Below are positions 122-16,831 of a DNA stretch of 20,000 bases, piece by piece. A program made the position numbers and the translations under genes. Source of the stretch: an uncultured virus (IMG/VR IMGVR_UViG_3300044631_002251). Lineage: Duplodnaviria; Heunggongvirae; Uroviricota; Caudoviricetes. The notes below the pieces were generated by a model. It was not told where the DNA came from, searched no databases, and saw only the letters and a program-made list of their open reading frames with translations. The DNA lies in IMG/VR virus record IMGVR_UViG_3300044631_002251; one strand, written 5' to 3'. Within the stretch, counting starts at the first letter, position 1. Every line of letters begins with the position of its first letter.

Positions 122-793
122 ATGAAATTACTTGATTTATTTTGTTGCGCTGGTGGAGCGAGTATGGGTTATAGCCAAGCTGGATTTGAAGTAACAGGAG
201 TTGATATTAAAGATCAACCAAGTTATCCTTTTAAATTCATTAAGGGAGATGTCATTGAAATCTTGAAAGATAAAGAATTTCTTAATTCTTTTGACGTTAT
301 TCATGCGTCACCTCCTTGTCAGGGATACAGCAACGCTACAAAGCCTGATTCAATTTACGTTCATTATTCTCAAGGCAAAGACACGCCGAAACTAATTGAG
401 CCAGTTCGCAATGCATTAATTAATACTGGTAAATATTATATTATTGAAAACGTCGCTGGTGCGAAAGAATATCTAATTGAACCGTTTAGATTAACTGGTT
501 ATATGTTTAATATGCCAATTGAAAGAACACGATATTTTGAATGTAATTTTCCAGTTGCAGAATTAAAAAATATTACTAAACGTGGATATTCTAAAAAATA
601 TGCAGAAGAGAATGGTATTGATTATCGCGACATGAGCGTTACCGGCAAGAGTCGCCGCAAAGGTTCTATTGACGTTTGGCGCAAGGTTATGGATATGCCT
701 TGGGCAGGTCGTGGTTGGGAGTTGACTGAAGCTATTCCACCTGCTTATACTAAATATATCGGTGAACAAATTTTAAAATATGAAAATAAATAA
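122..793 (+). CDS. DNA (cytosine-5)-methyltransferase
   Basis: Motif I LDLFCCAGG, catalytic motif IV SPPCQ, motif VI IENV; start moved to ATG 122 (MKLLDLF). Confidence 0.88.
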   Translation: MKLLDLFCCAGGASMGYSQAGFEVTGVDIKDQPSYPFKFIKGDVIEILKDKEFLNSFDVIHASPPCQGYSNATKPDSIYVHYSQGKDTPKLIEPVRNALINTGKYYIIENVAGAKEYLIEPFRLTGYMFNMPIERTRYFECNFPVAELKNITKRGYSKKYAEENGIDYRDMSVTGKSRRKGSIDVWRKVMDMPWAGRGWELTEAIPPAYTKYIGEQILKYENK

Positions 794-1331
794 ATTACCA
801 TCTTTAGAATATCTTAAAGAGTGTTTTGTTTTAGAGGGTTCTTTGCCAAGTGGACTTAGATGGTCTGCTAATAGACCTCTTTCTCACTTTAAGAGCGAAG
901 CCCTTTTCAAAAGATGGAAGACAAATAATTCAAATCAACCAGCAGGTTGTATTTTAGGTAATGGATATTATTATTCAAGACTTGATAAAAATAGATATGC
1001 AAATCATCGAATTGTATTTGCTATTTATAATAACAATGTAGATTTTCAAGATAAACAAATAGATCATATAGATGGCAACGTATTAAATAATTCTCCTCAG
1101 AACTTAAGGCTTGTAACAGCATCTCAAAATCAATTCAATCGTAAAAAACAAAAAAATAATTCCAGCGGACATAAAAATATTTCTTTTGTTAAAAAATTAA
1201 ATAAGTATCGCTGTGCTATGCAAATAAATGGTGAAGATATTTATATTGGCTTATTCAATACTGTAGAAGAGGCTATTGTAACAAGAGATTTAAAATTTAA
1301 ACAATTAGCTGGAGAATTTTATAAATCATGA
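780..1331 (+). CDS. HNH endonuclease with C-terminal AP2-like DNA-binding domain
   Basis: HRIVF...IDHIDGNVLNNSPQNLRLVTASQN (HNH_3 type), then SGHKNISF...IYIGLFNTVEEA (AP2-like). Confidence 0.88.
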   Translation: MKINKLPSLEYLKECFVLEGSLPSGLRWSANRPLSHFKSEALFKRWKTNNSNQPAGCILGNGYYYSRLDKNRYANHRIVFAIYNNNVDFQDKQIDHIDGNVLNNSPQNLRLVTASQNQFNRKKQKNNSSGHKNISFVKKLNKYRCAMQINGEDIYIGLFNTVEEAIVTRDLKFKQLAGEFYKS

Positions 1332-10205: not shown

Positions 10206-10457
10206 ATGGAAAATCCATCACCCAAGATTGGTCGTGGTCGTCCCAAGGGAGCGACCTCCACTGTTGAAATCACGTTGGGCGAGCTTCTCGCGAAGCTTAA
10301 CAACGATGCGAACGCCACTGTTGTTGTTGGTCGCGTTTGGTACAATAAGTACCAGAACGTGCCTGTAGCTTCAGCGCAAGATGGCGATTCACTTCCTCAA
10401 GAGATTCAGAATCAGCTTGACGAGGAGCCTGTTGCAGAGTTCACTATCACCCAGTAA
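10206..10457 (+). CDS. Small AT-hook DNA-binding protein
   Basis: GRGRPKG AT-hook core; start moved to ATG 10206 after the promoter; TAATG overlap with next gene. Confidence 0.75.
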   Translation: MENPSPKIGRGRPKGATSTVEITLGELLAKLNNDANATVVVGRVWYNKYQNVPVASAQDGDSLPQEIQNQLDEEPVAEFTITQ

Positions 10458-11386
10458 TGAACTACTTCGCTGAACTTGTTGGGCAAGAAGAAGTCAAACG
10501 CAAGCTTTCATTTTATTTGGAAGCTCATGCTAAGACTGAACTTGTACCGTTTTTGAACTTCGTTGGTGCAAAAGGTTTGGGCAAGACTGCATTTGTTCGC
10601 GAATTTGCCAAGAACATTTATAACACCACCGGAGTCAATAAGCCACTGCTTGAGCTAAATAGCTCTAGTATTAAATCGGGGAATCAGTTTTTCGAACAAG
10701 TTTTTCTGCCCCATATTCAAGATCAAGAAATTATTTGTTTCTTTGATGAAGCGCATTGTCTGCCAAGAGACTTTACTTACGCATTGCTATCTATTCTCTC
10801 TACAGAGAAAGATCATGTAATTGATTATAATGCTGGTAAAGCAAATTATATCTTCAATTTCAAGAAGCATCATTTTATATTCGCGACAACTGAATCAGAT
10901 AAGCTATTTATTCCGTTGCGTGATCGACTGACGACGATTGAATTTGCAGATTATAATACAAATGAATTGAAGGAAATTTTTCAAAAAGCTCTACCAAATA
11001 TTGAGTTTGATGAAGAAGCTCTATCAATGCTGTCTGAAACTTCCAGAGGCAATGCCCGTTCTTGTGTGCTTCGCGCCAAAGAAGTCAAGCTTTATGCTGA
11101 TCGATTTGAGATCACGCGATTTACCAAAGAAGATGCTGAGAAGTTGTTTTATATTCTTGATATTCTTCCTTACGGTTTGAATAGAATTGAGTGGCAGATA
11201 CTAAATATTTTGCGTAAAGAAGGTAGCTGTACTCTTTCTATGCTCGCTGCAAAAACTGGTTTGTCAAGAACCGCGATTCAAAGGGATTTTGAATTGTATC
11301 TTATTCGTAAAGGGTTTATTAGTATTGATAATGTTAGATATATTACGAGTAATGGATGCAAAGTATTAGAACTAGTTAAGAAATAG
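10457..11386 (+). CDS. ruvB: RuvB-like Holliday junction branch-migration AAA+ ATPase
   Basis: ELVGQE, Walker A GAKGLGKT, FFDEAH, FATT, PLRDR, SRGNAR, C-terminal winged helix ELYLIRKGFI. Confidence 0.85.
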   Translation: MNYFAELVGQEEVKRKLSFYLEAHAKTELVPFLNFVGAKGLGKTAFVREFAKNIYNTTGVNKPLLELNSSSIKSGNQFFEQVFLPHIQDQEIICFFDEAHCLPRDFTYALLSILSTEKDHVIDYNAGKANYIFNFKKHHFIFATTESDKLFIPLRDRLTTIEFADYNTNELKEIFQKALPNIEFDEEALSMLSETSRGNARSCVLRAKEVKLYADRFEITRFTKEDAEKLFYILDILPYGLNRIEWQILNILRKEGSCTLSMLAAKTGLSRTAIQRDFELYLIRKGFISIDNVRYITSNGCKVLELVKK

Positions 11387-11404: not shown

Positions 11405-11479
11405 GCTTCGCAAGCATAGATGCCGATGCAGGGGTTTTGTAAACCTCAGAGCAGAGTTGAAGTCTCTGGCGAAGCTCCA
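11405..11479 (+). tRNA. tRNA-Thr(UGU), non-canonical D/T loops
   Basis: GCTTCGC/GCGAAGC acceptor, GGGGT-TTTGTAA-ACCTC, CAGAG-TTGAAGT-CTCTG, encoded CCA. Confidence 0.85.
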
Positions 11480-11485
11480 ATTTTT

Positions 11486-11950
11486 ATGAAAAGAAGTTTG
11501 TATAAAGAAGAAATTCTCAGGTTGAGATCTGAGGGCAAAACATACTCGGAAATTGCGAGTATTTTGAATTGCTCAAGGACATTGGTAACATATTTTCTAA
11601 ATGTGAATTATCAATCAAATCATCAAAATCGATCTAAGACTTTTAAAAAGACTAATAGATTCGCAAAGAAAGAAGAAATAAGAAACAAGTTCGGCGGCAA
11701 ATGTCAAATTTGTTCTTATGACAAGTGTCAAAGCGTACTGAGTTTTCATCATCTTCCCGGTACAAATAAAAAGTTTACTATTTCAGATGCGATAGTAAGA
11801 AAAAGAAAATCAGATGAAGAATTAGTAAATGAGTTGAAAAAATGTATTTTGGTTTGTGCGAATTGTCACGGTGAGATTCATGCGGGGATCACAGAAATTC
11901 CAGAAGGTATCAAGAATCCCTTGACAATCAGTGAAAGTATGGTAGATTGA
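11486..11950 (+). CDS. Free-standing HTH-HNH (Zn) homing endonuclease
   Basis: HTH GKTYSEIASILNCSRT, CQIC...SFHH...CANCHGEIH; real start 11486 because the upstream extension is the tRNA. Confidence 0.85.
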   Translation: MKRSLYKEEILRLRSEGKTYSEIASILNCSRTLVTYFLNVNYQSNHQNRSKTFKKTNRFAKKEEIRNKFGGKCQICSYDKCQSVLSFHHLPGTNKKFTISDAIVRKRKSDEELVNELKKCILVCANCHGEIHAGITEIPEGIKNPLTISESMVD

Positions 11951-12050
11951 TCGCGTTCTTTGGATGCAGCAGGTAGTTGAAGGTAGTTTGAAATTTCTGC
12001 TAAGTCCCCTTGACAATCGAAGAAAGTATGGTAGATTGTCAACGTTCTTT
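11918..12050 (+). repeat. Tandem duplicated promoter cassette (11918-11961 and 12007-12050)
   Basis: CCCTTGACAATC-n3-GAAAGTATGGTAGATTG-n4-CGTTCTTT twice, 37/44 identical; TTGACA-16-TAGATT with TGn. Confidence 0.85.
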
Positions 12051-12056
12051 AAATTT

Positions 12057-12129
12057 TGCGGGTTGGAGAAGAGGTCATCTCGTCACGCTCATAACGTGAA
12101 GATCATCGGTTCGAATCCGATACCCGCTA
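12057..12129 (+). tRNA. tRNA-fMet(CAU)-like initiator tRNA
   Basis: U1xU72 mismatch, GCGGGT/ACCCGC, GAGA/TCTC D stem (A11-U24), CTCATAA loop, TTCGAAT; no encoded CCA. Confidence 0.85.
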
Positions 12130-12138
12130 AGTTTCCCC

Positions 12139-12183
12139 TTGACAAAGGCAACATACTAAAGTAGGATGTTGAAGTTCTTTAAA
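12139..12183 (+). promoter_or_regulatory. sigma70-type promoter plus boxA-like element
   Basis: TTGACA-17-TAGGAT then GTTCTTTAAA. Confidence 0.7.
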
Positions 12184-12185
12184 AT

Positions 12186-12769
12186 GCAATCGTAGCTCAG
12201 TTGGTAGAGCAACAGACTTGATGTTATCGCAAGATAACAAGGGTCCATGTATAGGAAACTGTGCATGAGTAAGGTGTAAATTCGGTGAACGGGTAGCAAT
12301 GACAGATTTCAAAAGAATCTGCAATATGTAAATATATGCCCCCAACGCCGAGCGAAGTTTTAGGCAAACGCTAGAGAAATAATAGAAGAAAGGATTGTGG
12401 GTAAATAGGCGCAATAGTGACCTACCATGATTGCTAGGCTACCCGTCTAGCCACTTAATTGTGATAAATTCTATAGCCTCATAATAAAAAACGTGTAGAG
12501 ACTATAATCACCTATCTAAAATTAGCACGGTAAAGGCATGAGAATCGTCGGGTAAGCTAAACTCGCAAGAGAGGAACCCCTGACAGCTAATTATGATAAA
12601 GGCATAGTCCAGACCACAAACAGTAGTAGCGAGAAATCTGTATCCAATGAAGTTTAGTAATTGGTAATTAGTATTCAATCAATTATGTAACAACATTCTA
12701 CTGGTAGTGAAAACTATAGTGGTAGGTTTAATCTGTGAGTCGCGGGATCGTTCCCCGCCGATTGCACCA
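12186..12769 (+). tRNA. tRNA-Lys(UUU), split by group I intron (exons 12186-12218 and 12727-12769)
   Basis: Joined exons give GCAATCG/CGATTGC acceptor, ACAGA-CT|TTTAA-TCTGT, GCGGG-ATCGTTC-CCCGC, ACCA. Confidence 0.9.
12219..12726 (+). mobile_element. Group I self-splicing intron (IC3, Azoarcus-like), 508 nt, no ORF
   Basis: P AAATTCGGTGAAC 12278, Q AACGCCGAG 12344, R TGTAGAGACTA 12494, S AAGGCATAGTCC 12599; P1 GACU/GGUC with U.G; terminal G. Confidence 0.92.
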
Positions 12770-12792
12770 TTTTTTTCAGTTCTTTTAAATTT

Positions 12793-12863
12793 TAAGCAGT
12801 GAAGTCACTATCATTATAATGTGTGTTATTTATGATAGATGGAAATACGTTTCCCGCTGCTTA
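12793..12863 (+). ncRNA. Candidate small three-way-junction RNA
   Basis: TAAGCAGTG/CGCTGCTTA closing stem, CTATCAT/ATGATAG arm, GGAAA-TACG-TTTCC hairpin. Confidence 0.5.
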
Positions 12864-12871
12864 TTTAATTT

Positions 12872-12942
12872 GAGTAAAGAGTAAGAATATGTTTGTCATT
12901 CGGTAATATATTCTGAAACATAATTGGAATTATACTTTACTC
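12872..12942 (+). ncRNA. Candidate small three-way-junction RNA with loop-E-like motif
   Basis: GAGTAAAG/CTTTACTC closing stem, AGTA-[AGAATAT/ATATTCT]-GAA, ATAAT-TGGA-ATTAT hairpin. Confidence 0.5.
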
Positions 12943-12980
12943 TTTTCGTTCTTTAAAATTTAATATGTAGTAGTTTCTAT

Positions 12981-13053
12981 GGGCCGTTAGCATAATGGTT
13001 TGTGCAGCGAACTCATAATTCGTCGGTTGCTGGTTCAAGTCCAGCACGGCCCA
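12981..13053 (+). tRNA. tRNA-Ile2(CAU, lysidine type); elongator Met less likely
   Basis: GGGCCGT/ACGGCCC, GCGAA-CTCATAA-TTCGT, GCTGG-TTCAAGT-CCAGC as in ileX-type tRNAs; no encoded CCA. Confidence 0.8.
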
Positions 13054-13077
13054 CAGAGGCTATTGCGTATTTTTAGT

Positions 13078-13153
13078 GGTCCCGTAGCTTAACATCAAAA
13101 GCGTTCTCTTTATAAGGGATTGACTGTGGGCGAAAATCCCACCGGGACTACCA
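13078..13153 (+). tRNA. tRNA-Ile(UAU), non-canonical D/T loops
   Basis: GGTCCCG/CGGGACT, TTCTC-TTTATAA-GGGAT, GTGGG-CGAAAAT-CCCAC, ACCA. Confidence 0.75.
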
Positions 13154-13157
13154 AAAC

Positions 13158-13232
13158 GGTCCATTCGTCTAGTGGTTAGGACAGTAGGTTTTCAACCTAT
13201 TAACAAGAGTTCGATTCTCTTATGGACTGCCA
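13158..13232 (+). tRNA. tRNA-Glu(UUC)
   Basis: GGTCCAT/ATGGACT, GTCTAGTGGTTAGGAC D arm, GTAGG-TTTTCAA-CCTAT, GCCA. Confidence 0.92.
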
Positions 13233-13243
13233 AATTTTTCCCC

Positions 13244-13288
13244 TTGACAGGGGCCGCAATCTCTAGTAGATTGTGCGTGTTCTTTAAA
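13244..13288 (+). promoter_or_regulatory. sigma70-type promoter plus boxA-like element
   Basis: TTGACA-17-TAGATT then GTTCTTTAAA. Confidence 0.75.
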
Positions 13289-13292
13289 TTTT

Positions 13293-13761
13293 GGCGCGAT
13301 GATGAAATGGCAGACATAGCGGACTCTTAAGGGTCCATACATGAGAAATTGTGTATGAGTATGGTGTAAATTCGGTGAACGGCTCGTTTCTTGATGAAAA
13401 GCAGCACTAGTGCGGTAGTGAGAAGTCAGATATTTGTAGGTTTCAAACTCACATTAATAAAAGTCGAAACCTTCTAGTCAAGAGACAACCCAACGCCGAG
13501 GCAAGCTAATTGAAGTTCATAAAAAGGACAGATATTAGAAGCTGTAGAGACTATAATCACCTATCTAAATTAATTCGGGGTGAATGCCCTTAAATGGGAG
13601 ATGTTACCTTTGTAAATGAGCTAAACGAAAGCTCTTCGGATTAATATGATAAAGGCATAGTCCAGACCACAAACAGAGAAATCTGGTAGTGAAAACTATA
13701 GTGGCAGGTAAAATCCGCTGGTAGAGATACCGTAAGGGTTCAAGTCCCTTTCGCGCCACCA
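13293..13761 (+). tRNA. tRNA-Leu(UAA), split by group I intron (exons 13293-13325 and 13709-13761)
   Basis: GGCGCGA/TCGCGCC, GCGGA-CT|TAAAA-TCCGC, long variable arm GGTA-GAGA-TACC, TTCAAGT, ACCA. Confidence 0.9.
13326..13708 (+). mobile_element. Group I self-splicing intron (IC3, Azoarcus-like), 383 nt, no ORF
   Basis: P 13368, Q 13492, R 13543, S 13652 identical to the Lys intron; P1 GGACUC/GGGUCC with U.G; terminal G. Confidence 0.92.
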
Positions 13762-13784
13762 TTTTTGTTCTTTTATAAAATTTT

Positions 13785-14390
13785 TCCAATAAGATGCATC
13801 CAGCTTCCAAGAGCAAACCCATGTTAACAGGACTTGGTAAATCCGTGTTATGGACGGCAGATGAGGAAAAATTGCGGTTTGGGAGTAATTACCCAAGCCG
13901 CAATACAATTTTGCAGCAATGAGGGCAGTCGTCTACATAAGACGTAGTTTGGGGTAGCCAGTGAAAAGCCTCTCGGAAAGGATCTGGTAGAAACTAGGGC
14001 AGAGATCAAATTAAAAAATAGTGCTTTTCGAACTATTTGGATTGATTGAAGCCGATATCTAGTTGGGAACACATCAAGCAACTGAACGACCTGATCTGCA
14101 AAAAACATACAGTGCGCCCAAGCGATCTTGTTTTGAGTCGCTTTACACTGAGTCAACAATGGGCAATAATTTTATTCGATGTCAGCAGACTCACGATGCT
14201 GAAAAAAGATACGCCGATTGCAAGCGGCGTAGTCGTGGAGAGTGAGTGGGTTGATCTATGCAAGATATCGTGTTATAGATTATAATAAGCTCTGAAGGTT
14301 TTCCCGTAAACCAACATCGAATATATTTCTCATTAGAAGGACAATGGGCTTCATGCCCCGTTCTGTAAAAAGACTTACTTCTAGTGGGAT
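13785..14390 (+). ncRNA. Large structured noncoding RNA candidate (GOLLD/ROOL-like or new class)
   Basis: ~600 nt, GC-richer than flanks, no credible ORF, many hairpins plus long-range and crossing helices, directly after tRNA-Leu; ends approximate. Confidence 0.7.
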
Positions 14391-14412
14391 TTTAATTTTT
14401 TTGAAAAAGCTG

Positions 14413-14440
14413 TTGACTTCTTGGAAAAAGCTGATAAAGT
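14413..14440 (+). promoter_or_regulatory. sigma70-type promoter with extended -10
   Basis: TTGACT-16-TAAAGT with TGn; ATG at 14450. Confidence 0.7.
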
Positions 14441-14449
14441 ATACCCACA

Positions 14450-14758
14450 ATGAATACGAAATTGTTTGTTCTATTAATTGCTGCTACCTCTTTGGTTGGA
14501 TGCCGCAGAGAAAATGATCCAGAAACTCGCGCAATCAATCAAGTAAATGCAAATGCGCCTGAATTTGTTGCCAATACTCCAAAAGGAAAATTGTATCGAA
14601 TTATTATCGATATAGGTGCGGGTCGTCACGAAGATCGTATATATTACTTCGAGAATAGCAATGAAGTGAACATAAATAAAACAATTCAATCTGGAAAAAC
14701 AAGTCGCACCGAAACTTCCGTAATTATCGACGGAAAAGAGTATATTCTCAAACAATAA
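14450..14758 (+). CDS. Putative lipoprotein
   Basis: MNTKLFVLLIAATSLVGC signal peptide with lipobox LVGC. Confidence 0.78.
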   Translation: MNTKLFVLLIAATSLVGCRRENDPETRAINQVNANAPEFVANTPKGKLYRIIIDIGAGRHEDRIYYFENSNEVNINKTIQSGKTSRTETSVIIDGKEYILKQ

Positions 14759-14770
14759 TTAAAATAAAAC

Positions 14771-14923
14771 ATGAAAGAAACTTCTATCAAATACGGAATC
14801 AATATTGGCAACGCATTAGCTGTTGCTATCAGTTGGAGCGTCAATAAGAGCATCCTCTGGGCTATTCTTCATGGATTGTTTGGTTGGTTTTATGTGATTT
14901 ACTACGCAATTGTTCGGGATTGA
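14771..14923 (+). CDS. Small membrane protein (50 aa, not in ORF track)
   Basis: MKETSIKYGINIGNALAVAISWSVNKSILWAILHGLFGWFYVIYYAIVRD. Confidence 0.8.
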   Translation: MKETSIKYGINIGNALAVAISWSVNKSILWAILHGLFGWFYVIYYAIVRD

Positions 14924-14940
14924 GTAGTTAAAAAAACCCC

Positions 14941-14968
14941 TTGACTTTTTCTAAAACCCTGATAGGAT
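14941..14968 (+). promoter_or_regulatory. sigma70-type promoter with extended -10
   Basis: TTGACT-16-TAGGAT with TGn; ATG at 14978. Confidence 0.7.
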
Positions 14969-14977
14969 GTTTGCACG

Positions 14978-15037
14978 ATGAAAATTGAAGTGGATCACTC
15001 GGAAATTGTTTGGAATTCTTTTTCAAAAAACTATTGA
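14978..15037 (+). CDS. 19-aa mini-ORF or truncated gene remnant
   Basis: MKIEVDHSEIVWNSFSKNY at the same promoter-ATG spacing as 14450; stop lies in the next -35 box. Confidence 0.4.
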   Translation: MKIEVDHSEIVWNSFSKNY

Positions 15038-15061
15038 CAATACTATTATCGAGTATAAGAT
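15034..15061 (+). promoter_or_regulatory. sigma70-type promoter for tRNA-Arg/Asn
   Basis: TTGACA-16-TAAGAT. Confidence 0.7.
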
Positions 15062-15076
15062 AGTTGTAGATTTTAC

Positions 15077-15153
15077 GTTCCCGTAGCTCAGTTGGATAGA
15101 GCATCCGCCTTCTAAGCGGATGGTCGCAGGTTCAAATCCTGCCGGGAACGCCA
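15077..15153 (+). tRNA. tRNA-Arg(UCU)
   Basis: Canonical cloverleaf, TCCGC-CTTCTAA-GCGGA, A20, GCCA. Confidence 0.95.
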
Positions 15154-15162
15154 CTTTAAAAC

Positions 15163-15237
15163 TGCTAGGTAGAATAATGGTAATTCACAAAACTGTTAAT
15201 TTTGGCGATGTTCGTTCGAATCGAACCCTAGCAGCCA
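15163..15237 (+). tRNA. tRNA-Asn(GUU)
   Basis: TGCTAGG/CCTAGCA, CAAAA-CTGTTAA-TTTTG, GCCA. Confidence 0.93.
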
Positions 15238-15262
15238 TTTTTATCTATACTTGAATTTACCA

Positions 15263-15289
15263 GTGTATTAACTATAATAGTTAATACAT
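15263..15289 (+). promoter_or_regulatory. Hairpin covering the HNH translation start, with GTGTA motif in its 5' arm
   Basis: TGTATTAACTA-TAA-TAGTTAATACA perfect 11-bp inverted repeat ending on the A of ATG. Confidence 0.65.
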
Positions 15290-15764
15290 GGTATTATCTG
15301 ATATAGTAAAACTTAAAAGAATAAAAGCTGGTCTCAGAACCATTACTGATGCCGAAATAAAAGAAATACAAGCTTTTTATGATGAAGGCAATGGTTTAAC
15401 AGCTTGTCAACAAAAATATGGCTATTGTCGAGGTACGTTAATTAAATATTTAAAAACAAGACCTCAATCCAAATCATCTATTTCTGACGAACAAAAGAAA
15501 AAGAATAAAAGCAAAGCTGTTGTAGCTTGGAGAATTAGAGCGAAGCAAGCTTTAGTAGATTATAAAGGTGGTAAATGTATTGTTTGCGGATATAATAGAT
15601 ACATAGGAAATTTGACTTTTCATCATTTAGATCCAAATGAAAAAGAATTTCAAATTAGTGGTAAATCTATTTCTTTGCACAAGCTAAAAGTTGAAGCTGA
15701 TAAATGCGCTCTATTATGTCATTTATGTCATGGAGAGCTTCATGCAGGTCTGATTAAATTATAA
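15288..15764 (+). CDS. Free-standing HTH-HNH (Zn) homing endonuclease
   Basis: N-terminal HTH-like region, GGKCIVCGY...TFHH...CHLCHGELHAG; paralog of 11486-11950. Confidence 0.85.
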   Translation: MVLSDIVKLKRIKAGLRTITDAEIKEIQAFYDEGNGLTACQQKYGYCRGTLIKYLKTRPQSKSSISDEQKKKNKSKAVVAWRIRAKQALVDYKGGKCIVCGYNRYIGNLTFHHLDPNEKEFQISGKSISLHKLKVEADKCALLCHLCHGELHAGLIKL

Positions 15765-15769
15765 TTTTC

Positions 15770-15855
15770 GGGAGTATCGCATAGTGGTCAATTGCAGGAG
15801 ACTGTAAATCTCCCGGCTCACGCCTACGATAGTTCAAATCTATCTGCTCCCACCA
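15770..15855 (+). tRNA. tRNA-Tyr(GUA)
   Basis: GGGAGTA/TGCTCCC, GGAGA-CTGTAAA-TCTCC, long variable arm, ACCA. Confidence 0.93.
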
Positions 15856-15858
15856 TTT

Positions 15859-16773
15859 TCAATACATTTTAAATCCACTCAAGTCTACTTCATTAATTTT
15901 ATATCCACTACTTAATGAAGATATTGTATTATTTACTTCATTTATATAACTAGGAATATTTGTTGCCAAGCCAGCCATAGTTCCAAGTGTCATATACCAG
16001 CCGCCGATCAATACAACTTCATTATTAATAATAGTAGAAACAATATTGCCGCTGTCGCCGCCAATTAATGCTTCGAAATATTGCGCTCTGTTATTATCTT
16101 TTGAAATATTTATTAACGTATTATTTGATCCGTAAGTAGTATTAAGTAAACCATTTTCTCCGATTAAAGCTTTTCTTTCTTGATCAGAATATAATATTGG
16201 AAAATTAATTTTATTTGCGTCAAAGTATTTTAAATAATTAGCTGGCAATACATTATATATTTTTAATGAAGCATCGACTTCTCTATCAAGTTCACCAATT
16301 AAAATATCAGTGTTGGCAACACGCTTTGTTTTTATTACGTTATAAACAAGTGATACATCTTTATTGTTAATAAAGAAAATCATGAATGGTGAAGTTGAAT
16401 AAGGCACATGATTCGCCAACAAAACGTGCTTCTTAGTAATAAGTGTTCCGCCGCCAACTCCACCAAGAGGAACGACAGCAGCGGCATATCCAGTTAGATC
16501 AAGACTTTTTGCCCAACAGTTAGTATTTCTGGGCCAATTATAAGGATTAGCATAAGGTGTTAATATATTTTTTCCTTTCTTATCTTTAATTAAATTATCG
16601 AAGTTAGAAGAGATATGAGAAAATAGATCTAATTTATTTGTGGTTATAGATTTTGGTTTGGGCGCATCAGCATCATTTAGCCAAATAGCGTATTCAGCTT
16701 CTTTTCTAGCTTCTGCAATTATTTTTTGCATTAAAATTGCGTGATCTGCGACTAGCTGCTGTAAGGTTGTCAT
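15859..16773 (-). CDS. Trypsin-like serine protease
   Basis: GGTLITKKHVLLANH (His), TDILI (Asp), GGDSG (Ser); start moved to ATG 16773. Confidence 0.78.
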   Translation of the reverse strand: MTTLQQLVADHAILMQKIIAEARKEAEYAIWLNDADAPKPKSITTNKLDLFSHISSNFDNLIKDKKGKNILTPYANPYNWPRNTNCWAKSLDLTGYAAAVVPLGGVGGGTLITKKHVLLANHVPYSTSPFMIFFINNKDVSLVYNVIKTKRVANTDILIGELDREVDASLKIYNVLPANYLKYFDANKINFPILYSDQERKALIGENGLLNTTYGSNNTLINISKDNNRAQYFEALIGGDSGNIVSTIINNEVVLIGGWYMTLGTMAGLATNIPSYINEVNNTISSLSSGYKINEVDLSGFKMY

Positions 16774-16802
16774 ACATATTTTCTTACACCGAAAAATGCC
16801 GC

Positions 16803-16831
16803 TTGACAAGGGGAAATTTTTCTGCCATCAT
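16803..16831 (+). promoter_or_regulatory. Putative sigma70-type promoter
   Basis: TTGACA-17-CATCAT with TGn; ATG at 16844. Confidence 0.55.

What the first reader, a model, noticed from the sequence alone, without database searches (positions are those of the whole stretch)
11405..15855. Paralogous free-standing HTH-HNH endonucleases bracket the intron-containing tRNA island: possible collaborative homing
Seen: two homologous HNH genes (GGKC..C.Y...FHH...C..CHGE.HAG), each directly 3' of a tRNA (Thr, Asn), while the two introns encode no endonuclease. Known: free-standing endonucleases mobilise tRNA regions (T4 SegB) and can mobilise ORF-less introns that interrupt their target. Inference: the HNHs may cut intron-less tRNA-Lys/Leu alleles of competing phages or the host, with the introns and divergent tRNA sequences giving self-immunity.
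Basis: inference. Interest (0 to 1): 0.7.

Follow-up and report, generated by a model that had tools for sequence, protein, structure and literature searches.

The report
Mobile HNH nucleases in phage tRNA island
Two related DNA-cutting "selfish" genes and two self-splicing introns do sit in this lake phage's tRNA gene cluster, but comparison with related phages shows that they come and go independently, so they are separate hitch-hikers and not a cooperating pair.

Summary
Two homologous HTH-HNH genes (11486-11950; 15288-15764) flank a phage tRNA island. In it, tRNA-Lys(UUU) and tRNA-Leu(UAA) carry ORF-less group I introns (12219-12726; 13326-13708).

In 12 related viral contigs with complete islands plus the window:
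- HNH-1 occurs with introns in 4 and without in 6.
- All 3 islands lacking HNH-1 have introns.
- Contig L012 carries both window introns at 100% identity, yet lacks HNH-1 and has a different, inverted HNH in HNH-2's slot.

Both HNH genes are precise cassettes of about 520 bp with empty-site alleles in relatives. Their protein families sit beside tRNA genes, mostly without long introns: a tRNA lies within 400 bp in 77 of 80 and 68 of 80 sampled viral loci.

Best reading: these are SegB-like free-standing homing endonucleases specialised on phage tRNA arrays, and the introns are independent selfish ribozymes. Lake metatranscriptome contigs carry a circular junction of the Leu intron, so it is excised in nature.

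The HNH part is a new member of a known kind. Group I introns in phage tRNA genes were not described in the papers I could search, but this scan has met them repeatedly on other DNA.

The parts
11405..11479 (+). tRNA-Thr(UGU)-like gene with an atypical T-loop, immediately upstream of HNH-1
   Evidence: ARAGORN calls it only at -ps85. It is not called. Orthologues in L014, L018 and L021 are called at default settings.
11484..12004 (+). HNH-1 cassette: a 521-nt insertion relative to the empty allele of L011/L012. It holds the ORF, a second promoter module and a 41-nt spacer.
   Evidence: Alignment A4; G001 comparison.
11486..11950 (+). HNH-1 ORF (154 aa): N-terminal HTH and C-terminal HNH. Its last ~11 codons read into the promoter module at 11919-11948.
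12008..12037 (+). Promoter module CCTTGACA-N-TAGATT. It is one of 4 in the island; the others are at 11919, 12137 and 13242.
   Evidence: 4 matches against 0.07 expected.
12056..12130 (+). tRNA-Met(CAU), lying between HNH-1 and tRNA-Lys
12186..12769 (+). tRNA-Lys(UUU) split in the anticodon loop after U33: exon 1 12186-12218, exon 2 12727-12769
   Evidence: ARAGORN -i gives Lys(ttt) i(34,508); sequence.
12219..12726 (+). ORF-less group I intron in tRNA-Lys (508 nt)
   Evidence: Core blocks shared with the Leu intron and the L013 intron. RF00028 gives only 13.2 bits, E 1. RNA contigs cover 12229-12621 with 0 mismatches. No internal + strand ORF.
12981..13232 (+). tRNA-Met(CAU) 12981-13054, tRNA-Ile(UAU)-like 13078-13150 (called by Rfam only), tRNA-Glu 13158-13232
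   Evidence: The orthologue of the middle gene is called Ile(tat) in L018.
13293..13761 (+). tRNA-Leu(UAA), long variable arm, split after U33: exon 1 13293-13325, exon 2 13709-13761
13326..13708 (+). ORF-less group I intron in tRNA-Leu (383 nt). U13325 pairs with G in P1; the omega G is 13708.
   Evidence: RF00028 30.3 bits, E 6e-6, model positions 1-253. RNA contigs cover it. No internal + strand ORF.
13328..13708 (+). Extent of the circular intron RNA seen in metatranscriptome contigs (381 nt; the junction is ambiguous by up to 3 nt)
   Evidence: Joint 13708->13328 'goes back 381' in X19 and X22, side 59, both 3, 0 mismatches.
15077..15237 (+). tRNA-Arg(UCU) 15077-15153 and tRNA-Asn(GUU) 15163-15237
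15242..15764 (+). HNH-2 cassette: a 523-nt insertion in the ~9-nt Asn-Tyr spacer, relative to the empty alleles of L013, L014, L018 and L021
   Evidence: Alignment A3.
15251..15278 (+). Promoter-like site TTGAAT-16-TATAAT, 10 nt before the HNH-2 start codon
   Evidence: a consensus match only.
15288..15764 (+). HNH-2 ORF (158 aa): N-terminal three-helix HTH and C-terminal HNH
15770..15855 (+). tRNA-Tyr(GUA), starting 5 nt after the HNH-2 stop codon

Best explanation
HNH-1 and HNH-2 are two independent free-standing homing-endonuclease cassettes. Each has a small HTH DNA-binding domain and an HNH nuclease, and they belong to a large phage family that lives in the spacers of tRNA gene arrays.

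Likely mechanism (inferred, by analogy with T4 SegB and 'intronless homing'). During co-infection with a relative that lacks the cassette, the enzyme nicks or cuts the relative's DNA in or near the flanking tRNA or promoter sequence around the empty slot. Recombinational repair then copies the cassette, together with variable lengths of neighbouring tRNA genes, into the recipient.

The two ORF-less group I introns in tRNA-Lys and tRNA-Leu are separate selfish ribozymes. They are transcribed and excised in nature. They travel with whole tRNA-gene cassettes and at most hitch-hike on HNH-driven gene conversion. They are not a dedicated partner or immunity device of these HNHs.

Shown here: homology and motifs, precise presence/absence with empty sites, alternative occupants of the same slots, the family-wide association with tRNA genes, independence from the introns, and intron RNA circles. 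Inferred: nuclease activity, where it cuts, and the homing process itself.
For: 1. Precise cassettes with empty sites.
- HNH-1 is a 521-nt insertion, absent from L011 and L012, where tRNA-Thr runs straight into the promoter and tRNA-Met.
- HNH-2 is a 523-nt insertion in an Asn-Tyr spacer that is about 9 nt long in L013, L014, L018 and L021. The tRNA-Tyr of L013 is 100% identical to the window's.

2. The same slots hold other nucleases.
- Thr/Met slot: a 223-aa HNH_3 protein in L013 (Pfam 26.8 bits, above the cut-off of 24.8).
- Asn/Tyr slot: a 173-aa HNH on the opposite strand in L011 and L012.
- Two further slots, empty in the window, hold HNH genes in relatives.

3. Family habit.
- HNH-2 relatives: at least 536 in viral contigs. 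Of the best 80 loci, 80 have a tRNA within 3 kb and 77 within 400 bp; only 4 of 80 have an ARAGORN intron call of 150 nt or more.
- HNH-1 relatives: 68 of 80 loci have a tRNA within 400 bp. Among those below 80% identity, 52 of 64 do.

4. Independence from the introns. In 13 complete islands (12 contigs plus the window): HNH-1 present and intron present 4; HNH-1 present and intron absent 6; HNH-1 absent and intron present 3; both absent 0.

5. Exchange boundaries. Window against L012 is 97.6% identical left of HNH-1, 99.3% from 12006 to 14398, then 89.5% (Arg-Asn) and 86.8% beyond the HNH-2 slot.

6. Fold. The AlphaFold2 model has pLDDT 85.5. Residues 14-60 resemble the Tc3, resolvase and IstA HTH domains (Z about 5). 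Residues 78-158 resemble HNH nucleases: Cap5 Z 4.7, Gme HNH Z 3.9, T4 endonuclease VII Z 3.7. These scores are modest.

7. Precedent.
- SegB lies in the T4 tRNA cluster, recognises a site that includes the T-psi-C motif, and drives inheritance of the tRNA region (PMC2330249, abstract).
- segB-tRNA co-localisation is widespread (PMC13096335, abstract and section 10).
- HNH genes in mycobacteriophage tRNA clusters have been noted (PMC6409571, passages).

8. Intron activity. RNA contigs from lake metatranscriptomes cover both introns with 0 mismatches. In 2 of the 4 runs laid, a contig joins 13708 back to 13328, a circular junction.
Against: - No cleavage or homing was or could be shown. The target sites are unknown.
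- The Pfam HNH model is below its cut-off for HNH-2 and was not reported for HNH-1. The structural Z-scores are modest, and Foldseek gave no match at E<=0.001.
- Many of the related contigs are near-duplicates, so there are about 8 distinct island architectures. The co-occurrence table therefore has few independent events.
- All three genomes with an occupied Asn/Tyr slot (window, L011, L012) also carry the Lys intron. They are each other's closest relatives, and the occupant differs between them.
- Intron-present, endonuclease-absent genomes are also an expected intermediate of collaborative homing. The endonuclease-present, intron-absent genomes have divergent tRNA-Lys and tRNA-Leu sequences. 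Independence therefore weakens that model but does not abolish it.
- The best 80 loci of each family are those most like the query, not a random sample. No matched control for tRNA density was run.
Confidence: 0.72

Rival explanations
1. Collaborative (trans) homing. HNH-1 and/or HNH-2 cut intron-less tRNA-Lys or tRNA-Leu alleles of competitors at the intron insertion site. The introns protect the phage's own copies and are spread by the repair.
For: - The introns carry no ORF yet belong to a family found in three different tRNA species (Leu, Lys, Met) and in several unrelated phage contexts, so something moves them.
- Intron-less tRNA-Lys(UUU) genes with the same anticodon arm exist in 37 of the 59 viral loci that matched the exon-1 word. 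Three of 16 loci did so for Leu. Potential targets therefore exist.
- Trans homing by free-standing endonucleases is established for T4 MobE with I-TevIII (PMC2790892, abstract in the listing) and for F-CphI with the psbA intron (PMC6083498, abstract in the listing; the details are recalled).
- Earlier notes of this scan describe HNH genes abutting intron-split tRNA-Leu or tRNA-Arg in other phages (unchecked).
Against: - HNH-1 accompanies the Lys intron in 1 of 3 islands. HNH-2 accompanies the window-type Leu intron in 1 of 4.
- Six complete islands have HNH-1 and no intron.
- L012 has both introns at 100% identity but neither HNH.
- Neither HNH abuts an intron-bearing tRNA.
- The protein families sit beside many different tRNAs, mostly without long introns.
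- No intron-less allele with the window's own exons was seen among the relatives. Intron-less tRNA-Lys and tRNA-Leu there are different genes.
Confidence: 0.08
2. The HNHs are retained because they benefit the phage. They might drive amplification or exchange of tRNA genes against tRNA-targeting host defences (as shown for SegB), or damage co-infecting competitors. Pure selfish homing would then not be the main reason for their presence.
For: - SegB promotes segmental amplification of tRNA-Tyr and anti-defence loci (PMC13096335, abstract).
- The family is very widespread in tRNA arrays.
- The island is mosaic at the resolution of single tRNA genes: the window's tRNA-Arg is 100% identical to that of L018 but 85% to that of L012.
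- The window's island carries a duplicated promoter module next to HNH-1.
Against: - The patchy presence/absence among near-identical genomes, and the replacement by unrelated nucleases in the same slots, look like selfish turnover and not conserved function.
- No tandem amplification is seen in the window.
- This reading is compatible with the best explanation and not exclusive of it.
Confidence: 0.13
3. One or both HNH genes are decayed or non-catalytic remnants, for example DNA-binding HTH proteins that now act only as regulators of tRNA-operon transcription.
For: - The Pfam HNH score is below the cut-off for HNH-2 and the family was not reported for HNH-1.
- The C-terminus of HNH-1 reads into a promoter.
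- The HTH segment of HNH-1 is the most divergent part between the window and its relatives.
Against: - The ORFs are intact.
- All Cys and His residues of the CxxC...HH...CxxCH..H signature are invariant in 20 and 16 aligned relatives down to about 50% identity.
- The PHROG HNH matches are strong.
Confidence: 0.05

Closest known systems
Phage T4 SegB, a free-standing homing endonuclease in the T4 tRNA cluster (PMC2330249, abstract read; PMC13096335, abstract and section 10 read)
   Same: A free-standing endonuclease gene lodged between phage tRNA genes and absent from close relatives. It is expected to drive preferential inheritance of itself and the neighbouring tRNA genes. The family-wide co-localisation with tRNAs is also shared.
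   Different: SegB is a GIY-YIG enzyme; these are HTH-HNH proteins. No cleavage site or cross has been shown here. Here at least four slots of one island are used by several HNH lineages.
Collaborative or trans homing: T4 MobE with the nrdB intron and I-TevIII (PMC2790892); cyanophage S-PM2 F-CphI with the ORF-less psbA intron (PMC6083498). For both I saw only abstracts in a search listing; the mechanistic details are recalled.
   Same: Free-standing phage endonucleases and ORF-less (or endonuclease-defective) group I introns lie in the same genomic neighbourhood.
   Different: In those systems the endonuclease gene lies next to the intron-bearing gene and cuts at or near the intron insertion site. 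Here the HNHs abut other tRNAs and are distributed independently of the introns.
HNH endonucleases in phage tRNA clusters: mycobacteriophages (PMC6409571, passages read); the phage T5 tRNA-region nicking HNH enzymes F-TflI, II and IV (recalled, not checked in any call)
   Same: HNH genes interspersed among phage tRNA genes and implicated in tRNA-repertoire diversity.
   Different: This is a different phage lineage (uncultured, lake water). Here the natural empty-site alleles and slot replacement are documented.
Bacterial tRNA group I introns, subgroup IC3: classes Leu.3Ug, fMet.2Ug, Arg.5Ug, Ile2.5Ug (Williams 2020, bioRxiv 10.1101/2020.01.27.920355, whole text read; Table 1 is an image that I could not see)
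   Same: Anticodon-loop group I introns with U-1 and omega G, and the conserved catalytic core. The small intron of L013 sits at the classical Leu.3Ug site and passes Rfam's threshold. The tRNA-Met intron of L010 sits at the fMet.2Ug site.
   Different: The window's introns sit after U33 (site 2) in tRNA-Leu(UAA) and tRNA-Lys(UUU). They are in a phage, carry large peripheral insertions, and fall below Rfam's gathering score. A 2014 review states that all phage introns then known were in protein-coding genes (PMC3984707, passage read).

Membership tests
HNH (beta-beta-alpha-metal) nucleases | Conserved catalytic His (the HH of FHH) and a downstream His, with paired CxxC zinc ligands | tested here: met
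   Invariant in the HNH-2 family: C97, C100, H112, H113, C144, C147, H148, H152 (20 sequences). The equivalent residues C73, C76, H88, H89, C124, C127, H128, H132 are invariant in the HNH-1 family (16 sequences).
HNH (beta-beta-alpha-metal) nucleases | Significant match to a curated family profile | tested here: inconclusive
   PHROG HNH-endonuclease families 2255, 3106 and 35854 match at E 1e-20 to 8e-25. Pfam PF01844 scores only 13.8 bits against a cut-off of 21.4 for HNH-2 and is not reported for HNH-1.
HNH (beta-beta-alpha-metal) nucleases | HNH fold of the C-terminal domain | tested here: inconclusive
   AlphaFold2 pLDDT 85.5. VIA-align gives Cap5 HNH Z 4.7 (rmsd 3.5, 64 aligned), Gme HNH Z 3.9 and T4 endonuclease VII Z 3.7. 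Foldseek's best E-value is 0.35.
HNH (beta-beta-alpha-metal) nucleases | Metal-dependent DNA nicking or cleavage | not testable with these tools
   Needs purified protein.
Free-standing homing endonuclease genes (intronless homing; Seg/Mob type) | Not inside an intron or intein; lies between genes | tested here: met
   Both ORFs lie in tRNA-tRNA spacers.
Free-standing homing endonuclease genes (intronless homing; Seg/Mob type) | Presence/absence polymorphism with a precise empty site in close relatives | tested here: met
   Alignments A3 and A4; G001 comparison.
Free-standing homing endonuclease genes (intronless homing; Seg/Mob type) | Cuts the endonuclease-less allele near the insertion site, with co-conversion of flanking markers | not testable with these tools
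   Only indirect evidence: the identity breakpoints between window and L012 coincide with the two HNH slots and with 14398.
Collaborative (trans) homing pair: free-standing endonuclease plus ORF-less intron | Endonuclease gene and intron co-occur across related genomes | tested here: not met
   HNH-1 accompanies the Lys intron in 1 of 3 islands. HNH-2 accompanies the Leu intron in 1 of 4. Six of 10 islands with HNH-1 have no intron. All 3 islands without HNH-1 have introns.
Collaborative (trans) homing pair: free-standing endonuclease plus ORF-less intron | Endonuclease gene adjacent to the intron-bearing gene | tested here: not met
   HNH-1 is separated from tRNA-Lys by tRNA-Met (268 nt to the insertion site). 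HNH-2 lies 1.58 kb downstream of the Leu intron, with a non-coding region, two small ORFs and two tRNA genes (Arg, Asn) between.
Collaborative (trans) homing pair: free-standing endonuclease plus ORF-less intron | Endonuclease cuts intron-less alleles at the intron insertion site; the intron disrupts the site | not testable with these tools
   Needs cleavage mapping.
Group I introns (tRNA anticodon-loop, IC3-like) | U at -1 paired with G in P1; G at the 3' end (omega G) | tested here: met
   Leu: U13325 aligns to the model's splice-site U and pairs with G; the omega G is 13708. Lys: the exon ends ...GACU and the intron ends ...UAGG. The same holds for the L010, L018 and L013 introns.
Group I introns (tRNA anticodon-loop, IC3-like) | Catalytic core matching RF00028 at the curated threshold | tested here: inconclusive
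   Leu intron 30.3 bits (E 6e-6), below the gathering score of 50. Lys intron 13.2 bits (E 1). Homologous L013 intron 71.5 bits. The core blocks are conserved across 5 introns.
Group I introns (tRNA anticodon-loop, IC3-like) | Excision from the transcript | tested here: met
   For the Leu intron only, and indirectly. RNA-library contigs in 2 of the 4 runs laid join 13708 to 13328, a circular form of 381 nt, with 0 mismatches. Ligated exons were not seen. These are contigs, not raw reads.

The most novel reading that the evidence does not exclude
Breaks made by tRNA-array HNH endonucleases drive gene conversion across whole tRNA cassettes. This is the vehicle by which an ORF-less group I intron family has colonised three different tRNA species (Leu-UAA, Lys-UUU, Met-CAU), all at the same site after U33, in lake phages. 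The relationship would be a loose, many-to-many 'communal' trans-mobilisation between a nuclease family and an intron family, and not a dedicated pair. It would also make phage tRNA arrays a previously undescribed reservoir of active group I introns.
Probability: 0.2. Interest if true: 0.7.

Novelty: new member of a known kind. Interest (0 to 1): 0.42.

Why it matters
The locus is a clean natural experiment on how selfish elements share a phage tRNA array. Near-identical genomes differ exactly by HNH cassettes, while the introns stay 100% identical. This shows that nuclease turnover is faster than intron turnover and decoupled from it. It argues against reading every 'ORF-less intron plus nearby HNH' as a collaborative-homing unit.

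It also documents an HTH-HNH family that lives almost exclusively beside phage tRNA genes. That makes it an HNH counterpart of SegB, which has recently been tied to escape from tRNA-targeting defences.

As a by-product, the work gives environmental RNA evidence that a group I intron in a phage tRNA gene is excised. A 2014 review said such introns were unknown in phages.

Tried and rejected
- The window's own assembly is not held, so I used the nearest virus record, G001, and viral contigs instead.
- Rfam at its gathering score, and at E<=5 on 5.2 kb, found no intron in the window. Only searches of each intron alone gave hits.
- A blastn search of cultured phages found only tRNA-sized matches and weak HNH matches. 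A tblastn search with the clamp-loader/RuvB-like neighbour found nothing above about 31% identity. No cultured relative or host could be named.
- A single-protein locus search for HNH-2 gave only 2 loci, so I repeated it with an alignment.
- The PDB sequence search gave nothing for the nuclease domain. Foldseek gave no match at E<=0.001.
- My first automatic 'intron' label was wrong for tRNA-Lys, because GGGTCC also occurs in intron-less tRNAs. Reading the rows, only 2 of the 59 loci (the G001 and L012 contigs) carry the intron.
- The RNA contigs gave no cover over HNH-1 and almost none over HNH-2. This says nothing either way about their expression.
- The joint 12591->13645 in X20 lies in a 32-nt stretch shared by the two introns. 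I take it as an assembly chimera.
- No circular junction and no ligated-exon junction was seen for tRNA-Lys. No ligated exons were seen for tRNA-Leu.
- The fold of non-coding 13763-14170 is not unusual (z -1.22).
- I considered that occupancy of the Asn/Tyr slot tracks the Lys intron (3 of 3). I rejected this as shared ancestry, because the occupants differ and face opposite ways.
- Paper searches found no report of group I introns in phage tRNA genes. The library lacks most subscription journals.

Full report
**What is there**

The window is part of an uncultured lake-water phage. DNA runs that hold the stretch are lake metagenomes. No cultured relative was found.

Between a clamp-loader/RuvB-like gene (10457-11386) and a minus-strand gene (15859-16809) lies a tRNA island on the + strand. 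ARAGORN and Rfam at default settings find seven tRNAs: Met, Met, an Ile(UAU)-like gene called by Rfam only, Glu, Arg, Asn and Tyr.

Three more tRNA genes appear on closer reading:
- A tRNA-Thr(UGU)-like gene at 11405-11479. It is called only at a relaxed ARAGORN threshold because of an atypical T-loop.
- tRNA-Lys(UUU) at 12186-12769, with a 508-nt intron.
- tRNA-Leu(UAA) at 13293-13761, with a 383-nt intron.

Four copies of a promoter module (CCTTGACA, 15-19 nt, TAGATT-like) precede tRNA genes, against 0.07 copies expected by chance.

**The two HNH genes**

HNH-1 (11486-11950, 154 aa) starts 6 nt after the tRNA-Thr-like gene. HNH-2 (15288-15764, 158 aa) starts 50 nt after tRNA-Asn, behind its own promoter-like site, and ends 5 nt before tRNA-Tyr.

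Evidence that they are homologous HTH-HNH proteins:
- They share 33% identity over 117 aa (E 2e-17).
- Both match PHROG HNH-endonuclease families 2255, 3106 and 35854 at E 1e-20 to 8e-25.
- The Pfam HNH model scores below its cut-off for HNH-2 and was not reported for HNH-1. The HTH models, reported for HNH-1, also score below their cut-offs.
- In alignments of 20 and 16 relatives, the CxxC...FHH...CxxCH...H residues are invariant.
- An AlphaFold2 model of HNH-2 (pLDDT 85.5) has an N-terminal three-helix domain resembling the Tc3, resolvase and IstA HTH domains (Z about 5). Its C-terminal domain resembles HNH nucleases: Cap5 Z 4.7, Gme HNH Z 3.9, T4 endonuclease VII Z 3.7. These scores are modest, and Foldseek alone gave no significant match.

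**The introns**

Both introns follow U33 of the anticodon loop (CU/intron/UAAAA for Leu, CU/intron/UUUAA for Lys), and both end in G.

Evidence for the Leu intron:
- Searched alone, it matches Rfam's group I model over its whole length (30.3 bits, E 6e-6). This is below the gathering score of 50.
- In that alignment U13325 sits at the model's splice-site U, paired with G in P1.

Evidence for the Lys intron:
- It scores only 13.2 bits (E 1).
- It shares the conserved core blocks with the Leu intron, with introns in tRNA-Met(CAU) of L010 and tRNA-Leu of L018, and with a small intron at the classical U34/A35 site in L013. The L013 intron passes Rfam's threshold at 71.5 bits.

Neither intron holds a + strand ORF of 30 aa or more. 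Three minus-strand frames that overlap them (56-95 aa) were scanned against PHROGs and gave no hit.

RNA evidence: contigs from lake metatranscriptomes cover both introns with no mismatch (for example 12229-12621 and 13336-13674). In two of the four runs laid, a 123-nt contig joins 13708 (the omega G) back to 13328. This is the junction of a 381-nt circular intron lacking its first two nucleotides, ambiguous by up to 3 nt. Circularisation by the terminal G is a known side reaction of excised group I introns (from general knowledge). I take the joint as evidence that the Leu intron is excised in nature. These are assembled contigs, not reads, and ligated exons were not seen.

**Relatives as a natural experiment**

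A search with the upstream clamp-loader-like protein, which is blind to HNHs and introns, found 21 viral contigs. Seventeen are close relatives (88-97% nucleotide identity), and 12 of those hold the complete island.

HNH-1:
- It is a 521-nt cassette. In L011 (the same contig as G001) and L012 it is simply absent, and tRNA-Thr runs into the promoter and tRNA-Met.
- In L013 the same slot holds an unrelated HNH_3-type gene of 223 aa.

HNH-2:
- It is a 523-nt cassette in an Asn-Tyr spacer that is about 9 nt long and empty in L013, L014, L018 and L021.
- L011 and L012 carry a different 173-aa HNH in that slot on the opposite strand.
- No other contig has HNH-2 itself there.

Two further slots are empty in the window but hold HNH genes in relatives: the Ile-like/Glu slot and the Glu/Leu slot.

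**Test of the collaborative-homing idea**

Counts over the 13 complete islands (12 contigs plus the window):

| | introns present | introns absent |
|---|---|---|
| HNH-1 present | 4 (window, L010, L018, L019) | 6 (L014, L017, L021, L023, L025, L026) |
| HNH-1 absent | 3 (L011, L012, L013) | 0 |

- Collapsing near-duplicates leaves eight architectures, with counts 3, 2, 3 and 0 in the same order.
- The Lys intron is accompanied by HNH-1 in 1 of 3 islands.
- The window-type Leu intron is accompanied by HNH-2 in 1 of 4 islands.
- Most telling, L012 carries both introns at 100% identity to the window but differs at both HNH slots.
- Window against L012 is 97.6% identical left of HNH-1 and 99.3% from 12006 to 14398. 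It then drops to 89.5% and 86.8% around and beyond the HNH-2 slot.

The nuclease cassettes therefore mark the places where otherwise near-identical genomes differ. This matches a published pattern (PMC10448857; I saw only the title and abstract in a listing).

Caveats:
- The number of independent events is small.
- Genomes with an intron but no endonuclease are also an expected by-product of collaborative homing.
- The islands with HNH-1 and no intron carry different tRNA-Lys and tRNA-Leu sequences. A cut at an insertion site is therefore unlikely but not excluded.

**Family habit**

Searching viral contigs with an alignment of HNH-2 relatives gave at least 536 relatives.
- Of the best 80 loci, all 80 have a tRNA within 3 kb and 77 within 400 bp.
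- The tRNA typically starts 0-30 nt after the stop codon and is often tRNA-Asn.
- Only 4 of the 80 loci have an ARAGORN intron call of 150 nt or more.

For HNH-1 relatives, 68 of 80 loci have a tRNA within 400 bp. Among those below 80% identity, 52 of 64 do.

These are the most query-like loci, not a random sample, and no matched control was run. Even so, the association is with tRNA genes as such and not with introns.

**Mechanism proposed**

The closest worked example is T4 SegB, a free-standing endonuclease in the T4 tRNA cluster.
- Its recognition site includes the conserved T-psi-C motif of tRNA genes.
- It drives nearly complete inheritance of itself and the surrounding tRNA genes in crosses with phages lacking it (PMC2330249, abstract).
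- segB-tRNA co-localisation is widespread, and SegB can amplify tRNA loci against a tRNA-cleaving defence (PMC13096335, abstract and section 10).
- HNH genes in mycobacteriophage tRNA clusters have been linked to tRNA-repertoire diversity (PMC6409571, passages).

I propose that HNH-1 and HNH-2 work the same way. Each would cut the empty slot, or the adjacent conserved tRNA or promoter sequence, in a co-infecting relative, and be copied in by repair. Confidence is about 0.7. The steps from 'cassette polymorphism' to 'cuts there' are inferred.

The introns are independent ribozymes. They may occasionally be carried along by such conversion tracts.

No intron-less allele with the window's own exons was found among the relatives. 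Intron-less Lys and Leu genes there are different tRNAs, which suggests that whole tRNA cassettes are exchanged. Elsewhere in viral contigs, intron-less tRNA-Lys genes with the identical anticodon arm are common: 37 of the 59 loci that matched a 24-nt exon word.

**Novelty**

Free-standing endonucleases in phage tRNA arrays are a known kind, so these HNHs are new members.

Group I introns in phage tRNA genes:
- A 2014 review stated that all phage introns then known were in protein-coding genes (PMC3984707, passage).
- Three searches of the held library found no later report.
- The bacterial catalogue of Williams 2020 lists the classical classes Leu.3Ug and fMet.2Ug (whole text read). I could not see its Table 1, so whether site-2 introns in tRNA-Leu or tRNA-Lys are already known in bacteria is open.
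- Earlier notes of this scan report intron-split phage tRNA-Leu and tRNA-Arg genes beside HNH genes in many other genomes. One of them (e1-5801629) reached the same 'loosely linked companions' conclusion on other DNA.

Noticed in passing
window 13763-14449; L011 11250-11819: A conserved non-coding stretch lies after tRNA-Leu. Part of it is 97-99% identical in L011 and L012. Positions 13907-14126 are covered by RNA-library contigs of a G001-like variant in 3 of the 4 runs laid. There is no Rfam match and the predicted fold is unremarkable (z -1.22). It may be a stable RNA of the tRNA operon.
   Followed up: partly
L086 2850-3435 and L096 110-695: ARAGORN calls a tRNA-Ile(UAU) whose two halves are separated by 512 nt. 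That insert contains a second tRNA-like element and a complete HNH ORF of this family. It is either a tRNA gene split by a nuclease cassette or an intron-like arrangement without room for a ribozyme.
   Followed up: partly
L011 11169-11244; L013 11409-11688: In these relatives the tRNA-Leu slot holds a 76-nt tRNA with anticodon UAA and no long variable arm, which is unusual for a Leu tRNA. It is intron-less in L011. In L013 it carries a ~205-nt group I intron at the classical U34/A35 site (Rfam 71.5 bits).
   Followed up: partly
L010 9958-10466; L018 10903-11276; L032, L034, L035; L262, L266, L269: The window's intron family also sits in a tRNA-Met(CAU) gene (L010) and in tRNA-Leu(UAA) genes of other phage contexts, with peripheral modules swapped. 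The Lys intron and the L010 Met intron share one large insert. In L032 a 229-aa HNH abuts the intron-bearing tRNA-Leu; in L035 the same spacer is empty.
   Followed up: partly
window 11540-11625 (HNH-1 codons ~19-46): Between the window and the HNH-1 genes of L010 and L021, almost all differences fall in the HTH segment, while the nuclease half is nearly identical. This hints at a swapped or fast-evolving DNA-recognition module.
   Followed up: no
window 14399-15033: A window-specific insertion relative to L011 and L012 holds a 102-aa lipoprotein-like ORF (14450-14758; weak phrog_6360 match, E 6.5e-4) and a 50-aa hydrophobic ORF (14771-14923). The adjacent tRNA-Arg is 100% identical to that of L018 but 85% to that of L012.
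   Followed up: no
window 780-1331: A third endonuclease gene of the HNH_3 type (Pfam 44.8 bits, E 9.4e-12) lies directly after a DNA methyltransferase-like ORF (80-793).
   Followed up: no
L013 9808-9886: A near-threshold match to the CyVA-1 RNA motif (38.2 bits against a gathering score of 41.4) lies between the HNH_3 gene and tRNA-Met.
   Followed up: no
window 11965-12005: A 41-nt spacer (GGATGCAGCAGG...CTAAGT) between the two promoter copies belongs to the HNH-1 cassette and is conserved in L010 and L021. Its origin is unknown; it may be a tRNA remnant.
   Followed up: no
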